Source of the DNA: an uncultured virus (IMG/VR IMGVR_UViG_2576861727_000003)
Lineage: Duplodnaviria; Heunggongvirae; Uroviricota; Caudoviricetes
Direction: 5' to 3' (one strand)
IMG/VR virus record: IMGVR_UViG_2576861727_000003
DNA: 20,000 nt
Part shown: positions 2,559 through 20,000 of the stretch, piece by piece
Layout of the letters: every line of letters starts with the position of its first letter
Numbering within the stretch: the first letter of the stretch is position 1
Notes under the pieces: model-generated
Databases searched by the model: none
What the model saw: only the letters and a program-made list of their open reading frames with translations
What the model was told of the DNA's origin: nothing
Position numbers and translations under genes: made by a program

Positions 2559-2670
2559 GTGCCATTAGCTCAATCGGTTAGAGCGCGTATTGTGTCTTGT
2601 AGAAGACACTTACAGCAGATTTATTTGCTATTCCAAAGCCGAGATGTGGGTTCGAGCCCCACATGGCGCA
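2559..2670 (+). ncRNA. tRNA-like RNA with a structured insert in place of, or interrupting, the anticodon arm
   Basis: acceptor GTGCCAT/ATGGCGC, D arm GCTC/GAGC, T arm GTGGG-TTCGAGC-CCCAC; ~39 extra nt including hairpin GTGTCTT/AAGACAC followed by TTACAGCA. Confidence 0.75.
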
Positions 2671-11491: not shown

Positions 11492-11857
11492 ATGATGGCG
11501 GTAGACATACGAAAGCATATTACAAAGGAGTTAAAAGAGGCAGTTAAAGCAAAATCTTCAACTTGTTTTTATTGCGGAAAAAAGTTGAATGATTCAAATA
11601 GAACAATAGACCATATTGTGCCAATCACAAAAGGCGGTACTAATGATATCAATAATTTAGTCTGTTGTTGTCATGACTGCAATCAAGCTAAGGGTGGCGA
11701 AACAATTTTTGGCGCGATAAAAGTTTTAGAGAATAAGGTCAAATTTTGCCACCCCGAATTTGAAGAAGACCAGATTCGAAAAGAAAAATATCTGAATTAT
11801 ATCCAAATCTTTAAAAACGCTAACAAGAAAATCAAAGCTCTAAAAGAGTTAATTTAA
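11492..11857 (+). CDS. HNH endonuclease
   Basis: CFYC..TIDHIVPITKGGTNDINNLVCCCHDCNQAKG, classic zinc-bound HNH signature. Confidence 0.92.
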   Translation: MMAVDIRKHITKELKEAVKAKSSTCFYCGKKLNDSNRTIDHIVPITKGGTNDINNLVCCCHDCNQAKGGETIFGAIKVLENKVKFCHPEFEEDQIRKEKYLNYIQIFKNANKKIKALKELI

Positions 11858-11877: not shown

Positions 11878-13482
11878 ATGGCTAGATATATTAGAATTAA
11901 AAAACATCAGTTAAGAACTAAGGACAATGAAGCTGTCTTCGACTTTGACACTAAAGAAGGCAATAAAGATATTATATGTCCAATGGGAAAACCGTCGGAA
12001 CCTATAGTAACTCATTGGAGATATCATATGTACCCTGTATATGTAGATGATACTATATATTATATTCGTACATACGAAGATCAGATACGTCACTTGGAGC
12101 AGCTTCTTTTTTATGGTGAAAAGATTCGCATAAAAGGCAAAGGAACAGATGAATATAAAATAGTCGGTGGCGGTTCAAAAATGTATAGAGCGAAGAACTC
12201 GAACGGCGTTGAAGTTCGTCGTAATTATATTAACAAAAAGGGTGAGTTAACATTTGAACCAATAACTCCCGCGGATCGTAAAAAAGAAGAAATCAATATC
12301 GTAGAATCAGACGGATTTAATATGTTTGTTGATGCTATACATACCAATAGCAGATACGACAGAGAAGATTATCTTCCTGCGATTTACAAAAACTACGAAG
12401 CGGCAACTAAAGCAAAAACTCGACTAAGAGATATACTTCGTAAACATCCAAACTGGAACGAAGAACAGCAGTGCGTTGAGATTTCTGTAGCAATATCGAG
12501 GAATATTGACCCAGAGAGAATTTTTAACGATATGGCTGCGCTTGATGACGAAGTATCTAAGCAGCCAATATTTTCAAGAAATAGCCTGACGCTATGGAAT
12601 GAAGTAGTGCGTACCCTCAAATACACCGACCCATATGAAATCAGAGACAACGTATATAAGATACGTCCGCAGTATGCCGACAGAATACAAAAGATAAATT
12701 TCTCTGTAGATTTAACAGATATAAATTATACACAAAAGGCATCTCGCGTAATTCACTCAATTATGACTAAATTTAAAGTGAATTTTAATTCGGATATCGA
12801 AAGAGCTTTTGCGAATGTATCCGACTCGCTCAGCATCAAATCAAAAAAATATAAGCTTGTGCTCTCGATAAACCCCGCGGATTTTGTAACCATGAGCCAC
12901 GGCAATTCATGGCAGAGTTGTCACTCGTTCAGAGCTAATAACTGCTACCATGCTGGATGTTTGTCGTACGCGCTGGATAATTCAACCATGATTGCGTATA
13001 TAATCCCCGAAGATTCTACTGGTGATAATTACAAGGTCGATAAGATAATGAGACTGCTCTATATGTTCTCTGAAGAGGGTAAGGGATTTATAAGTACAAA
13101 AATGTATCCCAATAATAACGATAAAGCCGCAAGAGCTTCATTCGATAATGCTGTGTATAATATCTTAAAAGCATGTGAGGTAGAACTTCCTGAAACTTTA
13201 CATAGCCCTGATTCATGCGGACGTATTCGTACATTTGGTCGTCATTATCCAGATTATCAGTACGGATACATGAATCACTTTGGAGAGGATTATCAGAATT
13301 ATACAATTGGCTCAGATGCTTATAATTTCGAAGACCCATCATTAATTATCAACACAAGTAATTCATGTACTACTATATCTCGGACAACAACCAGTGTTGA
13401 CGAAGTTATTCTTTTAACAGAAGAAATCGAGTCCGCACTGAAAGCCATTAGCGAATCAGAAAGCGTAGCGGTTTCAGCATAA
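11878..13482 (+). CDS. hypothetical protein, paralog of the central domain of 6927..9137
   Basis: LVLSINPADFVTMSHGNSWQSCH..CYHAGCLSYALD..MYP..HYPDY. Confidence 0.9.
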   Translation: MARYIRIKKHQLRTKDNEAVFDFDTKEGNKDIICPMGKPSEPIVTHWRYHMYPVYVDDTIYYIRTYEDQIRHLEQLLFYGEKIRIKGKGTDEYKIVGGGSKMYRAKNSNGVEVRRNYINKKGELTFEPITPADRKKEEINIVESDGFNMFVDAIHTNSRYDREDYLPAIYKNYEAATKAKTRLRDILRKHPNWNEEQQCVEISVAISRNIDPERIFNDMAALDDEVSKQPIFSRNSLTLWNEVVRTLKYTDPYEIRDNVYKIRPQYADRIQKINFSVDLTDINYTQKASRVIHSIMTKFKVNFNSDIERAFANVSDSLSIKSKKYKLVLSINPADFVTMSHGNSWQSCHSFRANNCYHAGCLSYALDNSTMIAYIIPEDSTGDNYKVDKIMRLLYMFSEEGKGFISTKMYPNNNDKAARASFDNAVYNILKACEVELPETLHSPDSCGRIRTFGRHYPDYQYGYMNHFGEDYQNYTIGSDAYNFEDPSLIINTSNSCTTISRTTTSVDEVILLTEEIESALKAISESESVAVSA

Positions 13483-16450: not shown

Positions 16451-16675
16451 ATGTATAAAGTTGAGTTTCAAGGATTAAGTGGGAAACGTCGGGCGATTGG
16501 AGTAGCCACAACAAAAGAGTGGTGTTTTAAAATCATCAATGAGTTTCTTGTAGAAAAGAATTACAAAAGCCCCTATACAAGAACGTGGGAAGTAGATGAT
16601 AAAACAACAAAAGTTGATGTTGGTAGTTGGTCTGAATTCTTTTTCATAACTAAAGAAGATAGCCAAACTATCTAA
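16451..16675 (+). CDS. hypothetical phage protein
   Basis: AAGGAG RBS; YTRTW..DVGSWSEFF. Confidence 0.75.
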   Translation: MYKVEFQGLSGKRRAIGVATTKEWCFKIINEFLVEKNYKSPYTRTWEVDDKTTKVDVGSWSEFFFITKEDSQTI

Positions 16676-16872
16676 GATTTTTGAAGTTAGAAATCTATTG
16701 ATTTAACGGCGATTTTCAGCGCATATAAAACTTAAATTTCCAGCGGGCTTTGCCCCACACTCGCGGCGGCTTGTACTTAGCATAGCTCCGTTATCATCAA
16801 CGTATGAGACGTGTTCTATGTGGAATAATATTCATAGCGAAAAGTTTCTCGCTAAAAAAGGAGGAAGACATT

Positions 16873-17028
16873 ATGTATGTCAATGAAAATGGTGAGTATG
16901 TTACAGTACGTTCTGGAAAGGATGAAGCTGGTGCGTATATAGAGTACCGCACATATCAGGATAATGGCTGGATACGCATTAATCGCGAGTATAATCACTG
17001 TACAACAGAAACGTTCGAAAGAGAATAA
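16873..17028 (+). CDS. small hypothetical protein
   Basis: AAGGAGG RBS, ATG 16873 (MYVNENGEY...). Confidence 0.65.
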   Translation: MYVNENGEYVTVRSGKDEAGAYIEYRTYQDNGWIRINREYNHCTTETFERE

Positions 17029-17070
17029 TTTTAGTTTTTTTGAGGTGGATAATAGATATTCACCTCGTAT

Positions 17071-17145
17071 TGGGCGTTCGTCAAGAGGTAAAGACCACAG
17101 GCTTTGACCCTGTTATCACTGGTTCGAATCCAGTACGCCCAACCA
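17071..17145 (+). tRNA. trnQ: tRNA-Gln(TTG)
   Basis: acceptor TGGGCGT/ACGCCCA, anticodon arm ACAGG-CTTTGAC-CCTGT, T arm ACTGG-TTCGAAT-CCAGT, encoded CCA. Confidence 0.95.
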
Positions 17146-17203
17146 CTTACGAGTTACACCTCCTTCGATTTATGGTACGTCGAGTAAAATCGGCGTATCA
17201 TTT

Positions 17204-17277
17204 GCTCCTGTAATCCAATAGGCAGAGATGGCAGATTTAGAATCTGTAAAGTATGGGTTCGAATCCCATCAGGAGCA
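17204..17277 (+). tRNA. trnL: tRNA-Leu(TAG), short variable loop
   Basis: acceptor GCTCCTG/CAGGAGC, anticodon arm GCAGA-TTTAGAA-TCTGT, T arm ATGGG-TTCGAAT-CCCAT. Confidence 0.9.
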
Positions 17278-17279
17278 TT

Positions 17280-17408
17280 TATGTAGTGGTGGAATAGGTA
17301 GACACAATGAGCAGATGATTAGCACAAGTACGCGCATAGTCGTTACTGTTGCCCCAGCTAGAGACTAATCATGTAAGGTGACAGAAATTCAAATCCTTAC
17401 CTACATAT
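17280..17408 (+). ncRNA. tRNA-like RNA with expanded central domain and enlarged T loop
   Basis: acceptor TATGTAG/CTACATA, D arm GTG-GAATAGGTAGA-CAC, stem ATGATTAG/CTAATCAT, T stem GTAAGG/CCTTAC with a 16-nt loop ending TTCAAAT. Confidence 0.65.
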
Positions 17409-17415
17409 TATATAT

Positions 17416-17497
17416 GCTCCTATGGCGAAATTGGCAAACGCGCTGACTTCAAGTATCAGTATCGAAAGGTTTCCGAGTTCGAGTCTCGGTAGGAGCA
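17416..17497 (+). tRNA. trnL: tRNA-Leu(CAA)
   Basis: acceptor GCTCCTA/TAGGAGC, loop TTCAAGT (one stem mismatch), variable arm ATC-GAAA-GGT, T arm CCGAG-TTCGAGT-CTCGG. Confidence 0.85.
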
Positions 17498-17499
17498 TT

Positions 17500-17821
17500 A
17501 CGGCAAAATCTACATACGACGAGAAGCTGTAGAAATTAGCCTACCCGCTGTGCGGGGTCTTGCGAAAGCAGGATAACGTTCCCGATAATACGTCACTGGA
17601 CTACCTAATGGGTTAATCGGCGTAAGAAAAGTCTTGCTTGGTAATACTTATTTCTCGGAGTATTATCTGACAGTTCGGAAAGACGAACATTTATTGGGGA
17701 GCGAACCCCGCCATAAAGACAAGCAGAAGTCTATAACATTCTGAGGGTTCGCCGTGCGTGGTACAGGGAGAAGGACAGAGACACGCATTTTTCTTCTATG
17801 TTGACAGCTCGGAAAGACGAG
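17500..17821 (+). ncRNA. two candidate structured RNAs, each ending in a TGACAG-N-TCGGAAAGACGA hairpin
   Basis: no plausible ORF; stems TCTACA/TGTAGA, CCCGC/GCGGG, TCTTGC-GAAA-GCAGGA, GCGAACCC/GGGTTCGC, TGCGTG/CACGCA; motif at 17668-17688 and 17802-17821. Confidence 0.5.
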
Positions 17822-17884
17822 AAGCGCCCGAACGTTTGAAATCTTGCAAGAGTATCCATCATTCGGATATAAAGGGCGCAACCA

Positions 17885-17969
17885 GTAGAGGTAGTTTAAT
17901 CGGTCAAAACAATCAGCGGTGAGGTCGCGGCTCACATGATAGTTGTAGGTTCGAATCCTGTCCTCTGCA
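17885..17969 (+). ncRNA. tRNA-like RNA with elongated anticodon arm
   Basis: acceptor GTAGAGG/CCTCTGC, D arm GTTT/AAAC, arm ATCA/TGAT + internal loop + GTGAG/CTCAC, T loop TTCGAAT. Confidence 0.7.
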
Positions 17970-17973
17970 CTAA

Positions 17974-18381
17974 GGCGATACTCTTCGAGCCTTGGTTGAC
18001 AACCGAATTTACGGGAAAGAGCGTTAGGCACATTCGTAATATGTGTAGGTTATGCGACAAACCTAGTATGGTATACCATTACTGAACAGCTAGTCACCGA
18101 GTCGTAGAAGATTAAAAAGTGGGGTGAATTGTGTCGCCCAGCGAATTGTGCCGCCTGTGATAAGGTTAGGCAGATTGGCTTAGTCAATACACAATGTAGA
18201 TAGACCTTCTTGCCCAAGGCTATCGAAAATGAAGAGTGGCGCAATGACGTACTTGACAGTTGAGCGTTGTTGTAAGACCGATTGAAATATCCGTCCGTGG
18301 TGTTAAACTGTAGGAGCAGCGGTCGAAGTAGTCTAAAGGAGTCCGCTTACCTGTGGAGCTGGTGGTCTTAAACAGGTGATA
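17974..18381 (+). ncRNA. large structured ncRNA, ROOL-like (compact)
   Basis: long-range helices ACTCTTC/GAAGAGT and AGCCTTGG/CCAAGGCT, ACAGTT/AACTGT with pseudoknot GACCG/CGGTC, ACCTGT/ACAGGT; tRNA-island context; family resemblance is from memory, not a search. Confidence 0.65.
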
Positions 18382-18382
18382 T

Positions 18383-18503
18383 GCAGAATTGATGGAAGTG
18401 GCAGACATTCGGGGTCAAGGGTTTGAGCGAACATCCGCAACCGTAGCCCTAAGTCTAATAGATGTTGGATTAGACATTGCAGGTTCGAGTCCTGTATTCT
18501 GCA
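18383..18503 (+). ncRNA. tRNA-like RNA with extended anticodon and variable arms whose loops are complementary
   Basis: acceptor GCAGAAT/ATTCTGC, D arm ATG/CAT with TGGCA, T arm GCAGG-TTCGAGT-CCTGT, arm GTCTAAT/ATTAGAC; loops AACATC and GATGTT. Confidence 0.7.
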
Positions 18504-18514
18504 TTTGATACACT

Positions 18515-18539
18515 AAGGGTTCAAATCCCTTCTCACCCA
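18515..18539 (+). pseudogene. tRNA 3' fragment (T arm plus acceptor 3' strand)
   Basis: AAGGG-TTCAAAT-CCCTT-CTCACCC-A with no matching 5' half upstream. Confidence 0.55.
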
Positions 18540-18570
18540 ATAATTAATTATAATGCGAAAGGAGTATAAT

Positions 18571-18768
18571 ATGAAAAAAATATATGTTGTTGTTCATGGT
18601 GCATATGATGATTGCCGTATATTAGCTGTATGTACATCTAAAGAAAGAGCAATGGAAATTGCAGACCAATACAATATGTTATATACAAGTTACGAGGGAG
18701 AAGAAGCAAGCATAGACGAATATGAGGACGGTTATTGTTATCAGTTAAAAGATATTGGATATTTCTGA
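18571..18768 (+). CDS. small hypothetical phage protein
   Basis: AAGGAG RBS, ATG 18571; KIYVV..G.Y....ILAV..SKERA pattern. Confidence 0.8.
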   Translation: MKKIYVVVHGAYDDCRILAVCTSKERAMEIADQYNMLYTSYEGEEASIDEYEDGYCYQLKDIGYF

Positions 18769-18783
18769 TGCTGTCATTAATAT

Positions 18784-18869
18784 GCAGAGGTGGCGGAATA
18801 ATTTGGCAGTCGCTAATCCTATTTAGGTGAGAGAACGGTCTCGTACAGGTTCGAATCCTGTCCTCTGCA
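18784..18869 (+). ncRNA. tRNA-like RNA with truncated anticodon arm
   Basis: acceptor GCAGAGG/CCTCTGC, D arm GCG/CGC, mini-arm CCT-ATTT-AGG, variable arm GAGA/TCTC, T arm ACAGG-TTCGAAT-CCTGT. Confidence 0.7.
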
Positions 18870-18947
18870 CTAACAGGTTAGGTAGTTAGCCTCTGGTTTT
18901 AGTCCAGCGTGGTTTAAGAATTGGAGAAATTGAGGGTGGTAATTTTT

Positions 18948-19109
18948 TTGAAGAAAAAACTTTGGGTTTTAGGTATCGGTATTTTAATATTTTTTGTCAC
19001 ATGGTTTGTCGTCTCTAACTTTGGAATTGAACCAATGCCAATTATACTTAATCTTTCATGTCCAGTAATATGCGCCCTTATATATTATGATGACGACGAG
19101 AATATTTAA
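18948..19109 (+). CDS. small membrane protein (two hydrophobic segments)
   Basis: GAGGGTGG RBS before TTG 18948, inside ORF 18921..19109. Confidence 0.6.
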   Translation: MKKKLWVLGIGILIFFVTWFVVSNFGIEPMPIILNLSCPVICALIYYDDDENI

Positions 19110-19123
19110 AAGGAGGTTTAATT

Positions 19124-19681
19124 ATGCAAATAATTAGTAATATCAATGATTTAAAAAAGATTGAAAGTGGTATTATATATGTTCCGACAAAATCGTTATA
19201 TGAGCTTTTGCTAAAAACAATATGTGAAAATAAATTTCAGTGGAAAACATGGTTAAGTTATTATTCAGAAGATTATGAATTTGCAATTCGAATTGAGCAT
19301 TTTGAAGTGCGTACATATGATAATTTAGCCTACTATAAAAGTCAGTCACATTTTAGTAATTATAATTATTACCAACTCGGATACGCGAGAAGAAATCCAA
19401 GTTATCGTGTTGGTGATATTGTTAAAATTTGTAGTAAACTCAGAAATCAGTGTTATTACGGTGGTGTATATTGCAATAAGCTTATGGTTGAGCATAATGG
19501 TGAGGCTCATGTTATTAAAGAAGTTCTGTTGGGATGTAGATATAGGGTAGTAGTAAATGAATCAACGTCTGAAGATTGGGTTTATAGTAATGATATGTTA
19601 GAGAATATCGTAATGATTAAAGATGTCGAAATTCCATGTTCAGATAACTTAGCTTTGTTGGGATATAAGGAGTTAAAATAA
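19124..19681 (+). CDS. hypothetical protein, IPYSEN-motif family (paralog of 14468..15067)
   Basis: AAGGAGG RBS; NINDLKKI..GII..FAIRI..VGDIVKI..VIKEV..YSNDM..IPCSDNL. Confidence 0.85.
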   Translation: MQIISNINDLKKIESGIIYVPTKSLYELLLKTICENKFQWKTWLSYYSEDYEFAIRIEHFEVRTYDNLAYYKSQSHFSNYNYYQLGYARRNPSYRVGDIVKICSKLRNQCYYGGVYCNKLMVEHNGEAHVIKEVLLGCRYRVVVNESTSEDWVYSNDMLENIVMIKDVEIPCSDNLALLGYKELK

Positions 19682-20000
19682 TGACAAATAATAACGAGTA
19701 TGATATGTCTGATTGCGGCACTTATGTAACGCTTCGGCGCGTAACAGAACAAGATGAACTTCTTGGAAGATTTGTTGGAGAAATTGGGGTGTTTCAGTGT
19801 ATAGACCCCGAAGACCCGAAAGTGGCGCTGGTAAAGTTCCGAGATTTTGGCGGGTATCGCGTATACAGAAACGATTTGAGTTTCTTCAAGACTGCAACAA
19901 TAGAATCGATTTTAGACGCATTCAACCTTGAAAACGCTACCGAACTTGTATCAAGGCTGAAAAAATATGTAAAGAAGGAGTGTAATACTATTGACAAACA
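19681..20000 (+). CDS. hypothetical protein (runs off the window end)
   Basis: AAGGAG RBS, TAATG overlap, frame open from ATG 19681 to the end. Confidence 0.7.
   Translation, partial: MTNNNEYDMSDCGTYVTLRRVTEQDELLGRFVGEIGVFQCIDPEDPKVALVKFRDFGGYRVYRNDLSFFKTATIESILDAFNLENATELVSRLKKYVKKECNTIDK

What the first reader, a model, noticed from the sequence alone, without database searches (positions are those of the whole stretch)
17885..18503. Compact ROOL-like large RNA precisely bracketed by two tRNA mimics
Seen: ~410 nt without a credible ORF, with long-range helices (17980-17986/18231-18237; 17988-17995/18214-18221), several local hairpins, a 3' domain with a pseudoknot (18276-18280/18320-18324) and a terminal helix ending a few nt before the next tRNA-like RNA. 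Known: ROOL and GOLLD RNAs are large ornate RNAs of Firmicutes phages, often beside tRNAs, with unknown function; ROOL is typically nearer 600 nt. Blocks such as TGAATTGTG, TGAAGAGTG, TACTTGACAG and GGTCGAAGTAGTC resemble ROOL as I recall it. Inference: a reduced ROOL variant or new relative, excised by tRNA punctuation (3' processing of the upstream mimic, RNase P on the downstream mimic), which would explain why the flanking mimics need no anticodon.
Basis: partly seen in the sequence, partly recalled or inferred. Interest (0 to 1): 0.8.

Follow-up and report, generated by a model that had tools for sequence, protein, structure and literature searches.

The report
Strain-variable noncoding cassette, not ROOL
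The gene-free 408 bases between two odd tRNA-like genes of a ruminant-gut phage are not a ROOL RNA but a patchwork non-coding insert that close relatives lack exactly, and whose first third also occurs in an unrelated phage.

Summary
The stretch is real and gene-free, and two tRNA-like elements flank it. It is not ROOL or GOLLD: Rfam 15 gave no hit to either family at E<=10, on the whole window, on 3.2 kb or on the segment alone.

DNA contigs of ~96-98% identical relatives in two animal-gut runs join 17971 directly to 18380. They lack exactly 17972-18379 (408 nt), with no shared letters at the joint. The insert is a composite:
- **5' module (17972-18106):** 87% identical in an otherwise unrelated 53-kb IMG/VR phage contig. 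There it sits alone in the same kind of slot, right after a tRNA 3' end and right before TAT plus a GCAGA-type tRNA-like gene.
- **Middle (18107-18246):** replaced by 168 other letters in a third strain.

But it pairs the 5' module with the swappable middle, so it is not conserved. Whole-segment folding is unremarkable (z -0.52), and no pair covaries (0 of 29, two sequences).

Best reading: an exchangeable non-coding cassette in a recombining tRNA array, probably co-transcribed and freed by tRNA processing. Expression and function were not shown.

The parts
17885..17969 (+). Left flank: tRNA-like gene with a lengthened anticodon arm. Acceptor is GTAGAGG/CCTCTGC and the T arm is normal.
   Evidence: Rfam tRNA 47.3 bits with 21 nt in place of 9. 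ARAGORN tRNA-Leu(gag). Fold z -2.2.
17972..18379 (+). The 408-nt non-coding insert (cassette A), present here and precisely absent from close relatives.
   Evidence: DNA contigs in X1 (6766 nt) and X3 (1169 nt) join 17971 to 18380, skipping 408 with 0 shared letters. No ORF or protein-family signal. GC 0.44-0.48 against 0.25-0.40 in the neighbouring genes.
17972..18106 (+). 5' module (~135 nt), the only part with a retrievable homologue.
   Evidence: 87.4% identity over 159 nt to L008 1385-1541, where it ends exactly at the 18106 equivalent and is followed by TAT plus a tRNA-like gene. 15 of its 17 differences lie in 17972-18041 and 2 in 18042-18106 (Fisher 0.0014). Covariance model R1 finds only these two copies in 81,593 bases.
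18107..18246 (+). Middle module (140 nt) with two tandem GAATTGTG(T/C)CGCC hairpin units. It holds the 3' strands of the long-range helix.
   Evidence: Replaced by 168 other letters in X3 record 14. Repeat D2. Best-folding module, z -2.31.
18247..18379 (+). 3' module (133 nt) ending in the hairpin 18350-18377.
   Evidence: Kept in X3 record 14, with 24 other letters and 8 gaps over 18247-18447. Absent from L008. Fold z 0.04.
17980..17995 (+). The partners are 18214-18221 and 18231-18237.
   Evidence: Exact complementarity. Used in the MFE fold. A composite of 15 bp or more arose in 1 of 300 shuffles. L008 keeps this strand (15 of 16 letters) without the partner strand.
18383..18503 (+). Right flank: 121-nt tRNA-like element with a 7-bp acceptor stem, a T arm and two or three extra hairpins.
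   Evidence: Rfam tRNA 26.2 bits, below the cut-off of 29. Fold. 96% identical over 126 nt in metagenome contig L001 and 70% in L002. ARAGORN with introns allowed: tRNA(cta) with a 27-nt insert.
18511..18540 (+). Orphan tRNA 3' fragment (T arm plus acceptor 3' strand) preceded by CACTAAGG, the same 8 letters that span the left junction of the insert.
   Evidence: Repeats D9 and D4. Hairpin. The only forward-strand GGGTGRG in the window lies far away at 12240, so no nearby 5' partner was found. Resembles the 3' end of the intron-bearing tRNA in L008.

Best explanation
Window 17972-18379 is a non-coding, strain-variable cassette. It sits in the spacer between two co-oriented tRNA-like genes in the tRNA array of an uncultured animal-gut (bovine-gut type) phage. 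It is not a ROOL or GOLLD RNA.

It is built from at least three pieces:
- A ~135-nt 5' module that is conserved and also occurs alone in an unrelated phage, in the same kind of slot.
- A swappable ~140-nt middle.
- A ~133-nt 3' piece.

At the DNA level (shown), the array is a mosaic whose variable segments begin and end at the edges of conserved tRNA-like blocks. Inferred: cassettes are gained and lost by recombination within those conserved blocks, possibly stimulated by homing endonucleases of the kind seen in the same slot in a relative.

At the RNA level (inferred, not shown), the cassette is transcribed with the array. It would be released by RNase P cleavage at the 5' end of the right-hand tRNA-like element (18383) and by 3' tRNA processing just after 17969. 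That would give a ~410-nt RNA or smaller module-sized RNAs, comparable to the extra stable RNAs encoded in T4-type tRNA clusters. What the RNA does is unknown. The conserved 5' module is the best candidate for a functional small RNA.
For: Not ROOL or GOLLD. There was no hit to either family at E<=10 in three cmscan runs. Both models are in the library: RF03087 has 574 positions and RF02032 has 416.

Precise presence/absence. The joint 17971->18380 appears in one contig each from two DNA runs of different studies, with depths 14.7 and 63.8 and no shared letters.

Composite nature.
- L008 holds only the 17970-18106 equivalent, bounded by ...ACACT|AAGG on the left and |TATGCAGA on the right, as in the window.
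- X3 record 14 has 168 other letters in place of 18107-18246.
- The three modules are not paralogues (z 0.86, -0.43, -1.22).

Constraint on the 5' module.
- It is 87% identical between two contigs that share no protein match (tblastn, E<=1e-3). Their only other nucleotide match is tRNA-Leu(CAA), at 78%.
- Its differences cluster: 15 in the first 70 nt and 2 in the last 65.
- 3 of 58 paired columns differ against 14 of 77 unpaired columns. All 3 keep the pair. This is circular, because the structure was predicted from the same two sequences.

The slot is variable. Upstream of tRNA-like-2 homologues lie:
- a 5-nt spacer (X1, X3);
- a tRNA fragment preceded by an HNH endonuclease gene (L001; phrog_59, E 1.2e-29);
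- tRNA-Gln with an ~11-nt spacer (L002).
Other contigs carry different joins (tables 5, 5c and 8).

Co-transcription is plausible.
- All tRNA genes and long ORFs lie on the + strand.
- Promoter-like and terminator-like sites in 16600-19200 are at chance level: 10 against 7.2 +/- 2.6, and 1 against 1.6.
- GC is raised across the whole array.

Precedent. [quoted passage not shown]
Against: - No RNA evidence for this segment was obtained, so transcription, ends and stability are all inferred.
- Only one homologue sequence could be retrieved. There is no compensatory change (0 of 29 pairs), and the 5' module folds no better than shuffles (z 0.01).
- The 87% identity could reflect a fairly recent transfer instead of constraint.
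- The composite 15-bp helix is rarer than chance (1 of 300). That fits a single larger fold better than independent modules.
- No homing endonuclease gene lies beside the cassette in the window. The only HNH found is 6 kb away at 11492-11857.
- It is not known whether relatives deleted the segment or the window gained it.
Confidence: 0.55

Rival explanations
1. A single new ~410-nt structured RNA, which is the reader's idea without the ROOL label. A closing long-range helix (17980-17995 with 18214-18237) encloses a multi-hairpin domain with a variable periphery, followed by a 3' domain. L008 would then carry a truncated copy.
For: The composite 7+8-bp helix was reached by 1 of 300 shuffles, and the MFE fold uses it. 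The middle module folds better than shuffles (z -2.31). A strain with 168 nt in place of 140 but with conserved flanks could be a variable peripheral domain. GC is raised as in structured RNAs.
Against: L008 keeps the 5' strand of the helix (15 of 16 letters) with no partner and no remaining 273 nt, yet its 135 nt are well conserved. Whole-segment z is -0.52. There is no covariation and no Rfam family. Close relatives do without it entirely.
Confidence: 0.17
2. Functionless recombination debris: spacer DNA left by repeated rearrangement, insertion and decay of tRNA genes, introns or endonuclease genes in a fast-changing array.
For: The array holds obvious debris, such as the orphan tRNA 3' fragment at 18511-18540. 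Many alternative joins exist among strains. Mobile genes sit in the arrays of relatives: HNH in L001 and TnpB in L010. Relatives lack the segment. Folding is unremarkable.
Against: No remnant of any protein family in six frames and no tRNA-model hit inside it at E<=10. GC of ~0.46 is unlike the AT-rich endonuclease gene seen in that slot. The 5' module is 87% conserved where the two phages share almost nothing else, and one stretch of 65 nt has only 2 changes.
Confidence: 0.23
3. A reduced ROOL or GOLLD family member.
For: Gene-free, beside tRNA-type genes, in a phage from an animal-gut habitat. ROOL was first found in cow rumen and is often near tRNAs (PMC5737381, passages read).
Against: No hit to RF03087 or RF02032 at E<=10 in any of three searches. 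408 nt against an average of 581 nt. Not conserved as a unit.
Confidence: 0.02
4. A mobile intron or transposon-type element: a group I or II intron, a MITE, or an IS200/IS605-derived non-coding element.
For: Precise absence in relatives. The base before the insert is T, as before group I introns. A TnpB element and a tRNA with a 259-nt insert occur in the related array.
Against: No intron or ribozyme family at E<=10. The insert ends in A, not G, and does not begin GUGYG (these rules are from general knowledge). It lies between genes, not within one. No target duplication (0 shared letters) and no terminal inverted repeats. The L008 copy has a different right end, which a transposable unit would need to keep.
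Confidence: 0.03

Closest known systems
ROOL RNA (Rfam RF03087)
   Same: A gene-free stretch of several hundred nucleotides next to tRNA-type genes in a phage, from an animal-gut habitat. ROOL was first seen in cow rumen data and is often near tRNAs and in prophages (PMC5737381, passages).
   Different: No covariance-model match at E<=10. [quoted passage not shown] Not inherited as one unit.
GOLLD RNA (Rfam RF02032)
   Same: A large phage RNA often beside tRNA islands, sometimes with tRNAs inside its linker (bioRxiv 10.1101/2024.12.08.627333, passages).
   Different: No model match. Many GOLLD members exceed 800 nt, twice this size.
[quoted passage not shown]
   Same: Extra non-tRNA RNA genes lying among phage tRNA genes and varying between related phages (PMC2330249, figure legend read). 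That they are cut from the tRNA precursor is recalled, not read here.
   Different: No sequence relation was tested. Expression of the present cassette is not shown.
SegB-type homing in phage tRNA regions
   Same: An endonuclease that recognises the conserved T-psi-C stem-loop drives one-way replacement of tRNA-region segments between related phages (PMC2330249, abstract). Here a relative carries an HNH endonuclease gene in the same slot, and the segment boundaries sit at tRNA-like edges.
   Different: No endonuclease gene adjoins the cassette in the window. No cleavage site is known. The mechanism is an inference.
Earlier scan finding e1-5525183: orphan 745-nt RNA in a rumen phage tRNA cluster
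   Same: A gene-free stretch in the tRNA cluster of a rumen phage that is not ROOL or GOLLD and is missing from related phages (an AI note, unchecked).
   Different: No shared sequence words with this window. That one was reported as abundant in RNA libraries, which is not shown for this segment.

Membership tests
ROOL (RF03087) | Match to the family covariance model (574 positions, gathering score 99.1 bits) | tested here: not met
   No ROOL row at the gathering threshold or at E<=10 on 3.2 kb or on 431 bases alone. The model's presence was verified. No positive control rang.
ROOL (RF03087) | [quoted passage not shown] | tested here: not met
   408 nt. The predicted fold has one large junction and a 3' domain. 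Pseudoknots cannot be judged from one sequence.
ROOL (RF03087) | Located near tRNAs, often in phages or prophages | tested here: met
   Lies inside a phage tRNA array.
GOLLD (RF02032) | Match to the family covariance model (416 positions, gathering score 150 bits) | tested here: not met
   No GOLLD row. The model's presence was verified.
tRNA (RF00005), for the two flanks | Score at or above 29 bits with a normal cloverleaf | tested here: inconclusive
   Left flank scores 47.3 bits but has 21 nt in place of 9 in the anticodon loop region. Right flank scores 26.2 bits, below the cut-off. ARAGORN calls the left one and, only with introns allowed, the right one.
Group I intron | Model match; sits inside a gene; upstream exon ends in U and the intron ends in G | tested here: not met
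   No intron family at E<=10. It lies between genes and ends in A. The boundary rule comes from general knowledge.
MITE or IS-derived non-coding element | Terminal inverted repeats and target-site duplication, or conserved ends at every copy | tested here: not met
   0 shared letters at the joint. No terminal inverted repeat. The L008 copy has a different right end.
Stable RNA cut from a phage tRNA-cluster transcript (T4 species I/II type) | Lies within a co-oriented tRNA cluster with no terminator between | tested here: met
Stable RNA cut from a phage tRNA-cluster transcript (T4 species I/II type) | Accumulates as a discrete RNA with ends set by tRNA processing | not testable with these tools
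   No run carrying this insert could be examined as RNA. The only hint is for the neighbouring spacer 17499-17884.

The most novel reading that the evidence does not exclude
These animal-gut phages may carry a family of exchangeable non-coding RNA gene cassettes, including a conserved ~135-nt small-RNA module. The cassettes would move between unrelated phages by landing at a fixed point just upstream of GCAGA-type tRNA-like genes. They would be released from the array transcript by tRNA-processing enzymes. Together with the remodelled tRNA-like RNAs, they would act on the host, for example as decoys against tRNA-targeting defences.
Probability: 0.13. Interest if true: 0.65.

Novelty: new member of a known kind. 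Interest (0 to 1): 0.3.

Why it matters
The main value is negative: a plausible-looking "compact ROOL" is shown not to be one, which keeps it out of that family.

The positive part is modest. The tRNA array of this phage lineage is a mosaic of swappable units, including tRNA-like RNAs with lengthened anticodon arms and non-coding cassettes. One ~135-nt module is better conserved between two otherwise unrelated phages than a true tRNA gene. If that module proves to be a stable RNA, it would add to the very small set of non-tRNA RNAs known from phage tRNA clusters, whose roles remain open.

Tried and rejected
**Homologue searches that found nothing**
- blastn of 17500-18900 against 50,697 phage records.
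- Neighbour protein 19124-19681 in IMG/VR.
- Exact patterns in IMG/VR.
- Two genome-contig scans.

**Chance matches**
- In the 17-mer scan, 6 of the 7 loci (L003-L007, L009) matched only the pattern itself.
- In one search, L011 was also a chance match.

**Resources not available**
- No whole genome is held for the window.
- The records of L001 and L002 could not be searched whole.

**Further copies and paralogy**
- Covariance model R1 of the 5' module found no further copy in 81,593 bases.
- The three modules and the neighbouring spacer are not paralogues.

**Coding readings rejected**
- No frame opens under any single stop reassignment.
- No protein family matched.

**Tests that failed or were uninformative**
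- The duplexfold test of the 5' module against the rest was uninformative, because it builds unrealistically long duplexes (265 of 300 shuffles did as well). It was replaced by the helix count.
- timed out and was rerun in smaller form.
- Searches failed on wrong ORF coordinates and were corrected.

**RNA libraries**
The two RNA runs laid (X18, X19) gave no contig over 17894-19000. This says nothing about expression of the insert, because the strains in those samples may lack it.

**Other points**
- RF01998, which I recalled as GOLLD, turned out to be another family. The correct accession is RF02032.
- Loop-loop and D-arm complementarities noticed by eye (for example I1) are at chance level by my rough estimate.

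Full report
**What is there**

The window reads like a phage. Almost all long ORFs are on the + strand and few have known families. Those found are an M28/M20-type peptidase, a nucleoside 2-deoxyribosyltransferase-like protein, an HNH endonuclease and DUF7336. From about 17070 to 18870 lies an array of tRNA and tRNA-like genes.

The segment in question lies between two tRNA-like elements.
- The left one, 17885-17969, scores 47.3 bits on the Rfam tRNA model but has 21 nt where 9 are expected in the anticodon loop region. ARAGORN calls it tRNA-Leu(gag).
- The right one, 18383-18503, is 121 nt and scores 26.2 bits, below the cut-off of 29. It has an acceptor stem, a T arm and extra hairpins.

**Checking the observation**

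The stretch has no credible ORF. All six frames of 17881-18560 carry all three kinds of stop codon, so no single stop reassignment opens a frame. The six frames read through with X, and the short ORFs that overlap the stretch, match nothing beyond noise in Pfam or PHROGs.

A helix of 8 bp is common: 120 of 300 dinucleotide-preserving shuffles had one. A 7+8-bp composite with gaps of 10 nt or less is rare: 1 of 300 shuffles reached 15 bp (a test designed after seeing the helix).

Against that, the whole segment folds no better than shuffles (z -0.52, with 30 of 100 folding at least as well). Of the three parts described below, only the middle one stands out (z 0.01, -2.31, 0.04). GC is 0.44-0.48 across the array against 0.25-0.40 in the flanking genes.

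**ROOL and GOLLD**

Rfam 15 cmscan gave no ROOL or GOLLD row in any of three searches:
- at gathering thresholds on the whole window;
- at E<=10 on 16800-20000;
- at E<=10 on 17960-18390 alone, where filters are laxest.

The only rows in the last search were noise, at E 1.8 and 7.5. Both models are in the library: RF03087 has 574 positions and a cut-off of 99.1 bits, and RF02032 has 416 positions and a cut-off of 150 bits. I had no known ROOL locus to serve as a positive control.

[quoted passage not shown] This segment is 408 nt.

**The decisive new fact: the segment is an insert**

Sequencing runs that hold near-identical DNA are animal-gut metagenomes. Four of them were laid on 16900-19000.
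- In X1, a 6766-nt contig runs from 17369 to 17971 and continues without a break at 18380. Its flanks differ from the window by 9 and 13 letters.
- In X3, a bovine-gut run from another study, a 1169-nt contig makes the same join.
- The joint skips 408 nt (17972-18379) and has no letters shared between its two sides.

So close relatives have the two tRNA-like genes 5 nt apart.

A third contig, X3 record 14 (1884 nt), holds a diverged copy. It has 18015-18106 with 6 other letters, then 168 unrelated letters in place of 18107-18246, then 18247-18447 with 24 other letters and 8 gaps. Other contigs show still other joins after 17972 and after 18505. The array is therefore a mosaic among strains.

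**Homologues elsewhere**

Most searches found nothing.

A 17-mer scan of IMG/VR returned one true relative among 7 loci. This is L008, part of a 53-kb contig (G001; CheckV completeness 34%). Its positions 1385-1541 match window 17948-18106 at 87.4% over 159 nt.

The layout in L008 is as follows.
- The homologous piece starts right after the 3' end of a tRNA that carries a 259-nt insert in its anticodon loop (ARAGORN with introns allowed, 1064-1407).
- It ends exactly at the equivalent of 18106.
- It is followed at once by TAT and a GCAGAGA-type tRNA-like gene.
- The junction letters match the window's: ...CACT|AAGG on the left and |TATGCAGA on the right.
- The remaining 273 nt of the window's insert occur nowhere in that contig.

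The two contigs share no protein match by tblastn at E<=1e-3. Their only other nucleotide match is tRNA-Leu(CAA), at 78%.

The 17 differences in the module are unevenly spread: 15 in 17972-18041 and 2 in 18042-18106 (Fisher 0.0014).

RNAalifold on the two copies predicts 29 pairs forming a self-contained fold. Three pairs change on one side and stay paired, and none changes on both sides. Differences avoid paired columns (3 of 58 against 14 of 77, p 0.03). This comparison is circular, because the structure came from the same two sequences.

A covariance model built from them finds only these two copies in 81,593 bases. The three parts of the insert are not paralogues of each other or of the neighbouring spacer.

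The long-range helix pairs the conserved 5' module with the swappable middle. L008 keeps the 5' strand (15 of 16 letters) with no partner. A single conserved ~410-nt fold is therefore not supported by the copies I could see. The statistical oddity of the helix keeps that reading alive at about one in six.

**Mechanism: what is shown and what is inferred**

Shown:
- The insert is present in the window and absent in relatives, with exact boundaries.
- It has a module structure.
- The same slot holds different contents in different phages.

The slot just upstream of tRNA-like-2 homologues holds a different thing in each relative:
- a 5-nt spacer (X1, X3);
- a tRNA 3' fragment preceded by a 176-aa HNH endonuclease gene (L001; phrog_59 at E 1.2e-29);
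- tRNA-Gln with a spacer of about 11 nt (L002).

Inferred at the DNA level: segments are exchanged by recombination within the conserved tRNA-like blocks, possibly helped by homing endonucleases. T4 SegB is the precedent. It recognises the T-psi-C stem-loop and replaces tRNA-region segments in co-infection (PMC2330249, abstract and passages read).

Inferred at the RNA level: the insert is transcribed with the array. There is no excess of promoter-like or terminator-like sites. It would be freed by RNase P at 18383 and by 3' tRNA processing after 17969.

The only RNA hint concerns the neighbouring spacer. Contigs from two RNA libraries of one study cover 17520-17879 (a 361-nt contig) and 17607-17877 (a 271-nt contig). 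They stop 6-8 nt before the left tRNA-like gene, while DNA contigs run on.

**Comparison with what is known, and novelty**

The segment is not a member of ROOL or GOLLD. It is not an intron, MITE or IS-derived element by the features tested.

It most resembles the extra RNA genes of T4-type tRNA clusters (RNA species I and II; PMC2330249, figure legend) in position. It resembles homing-driven segment exchange in how it varies.

I did not check that note, and it shares no sequence with this window.

**Verdict**

This is a real but ordinary-looking variable insert. The ROOL label is wrong. One ~135-nt module deserves a follow-up as a candidate small RNA.

Noticed in passing
window 17499-17884: An ORF-free spacer between tRNA-Leu(caa) and the left tRNA-like gene. 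Contigs from two RNA libraries of one study cover 17520-17879 (361 nt) and 17607-17877 (271 nt), while the adjacent genes have none. No Rfam family at E<=10. This is a better candidate for a tRNA-bracketed stable RNA than the reported segment.
   Followed up: partly
window 17668-17690 and 17801-17823; L008 1720-1740; L001 4083-4070 and about 3655-3640: A recurring hairpin with a GAAAGA loop (stem-GGAAAGAC-stem), often preceded by TTGACAG and often just upstream of a tRNA(-like) gene. The stem letters differ between copies while staying paired. 21 nt are identical between the window and L008. It could be a processing or promoter-linked signal.
   Followed up: partly
window 18511-18540: An orphan tRNA 3' fragment (T arm plus acceptor 3' strand) with no nearby 5' partner. 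It is preceded by CACTAAGG, the same 8 letters that span the left junction of the insert. It looks like a recombination scar.
   Followed up: partly
window 2559-2670, 17279-17403, 18784-18869: More tRNA-like elements with enlarged or odd interiors. 2559-2670 is 112 nt and scores 43.1 bits; ARAGORN with introns allowed reads tRNA(gtt) with a 32-nt insert. 18784-18869 scores 31.1 bits and shares its 3' half with the left flank of the insert.
   Followed up: partly
L010 817-1920 (= L008 up to 898) and L008 1064-1407: The related IMG/VR phage has a TnpB (OrfB_IS605) gene inside its tRNA array. Next to it is a tRNA with a 259-nt insert in the anticodon loop. That insert gave no Rfam group I intron hit at E<=0.1.
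   Followed up: partly
L001 2997-3527 (minus strand): A 176-aa HNH homing-endonuclease gene sits just upstream of a tRNA fragment and the 96%-identical copy of the right-hand tRNA-like element.
   Followed up: yes
L002 1712-1802; window 18382-18504: ARAGORN reads a tRNA with anticodon CTA (amber-reading type) in L002. With introns allowed, it reads the same in the window's right-hand tRNA-like element. Window ORFs end in TAA 18, TGA 4 and TAG 4 of the 26 counted. Recoding was not examined further.
   Followed up: no
window 18068-18079: A perfect 12-bp palindrome, ATGGTATACCAT, lies in the most conserved part of the 5' module and is identical in L008. It could be a hairpin in RNA or a protein-binding site in DNA.
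   Followed up: no
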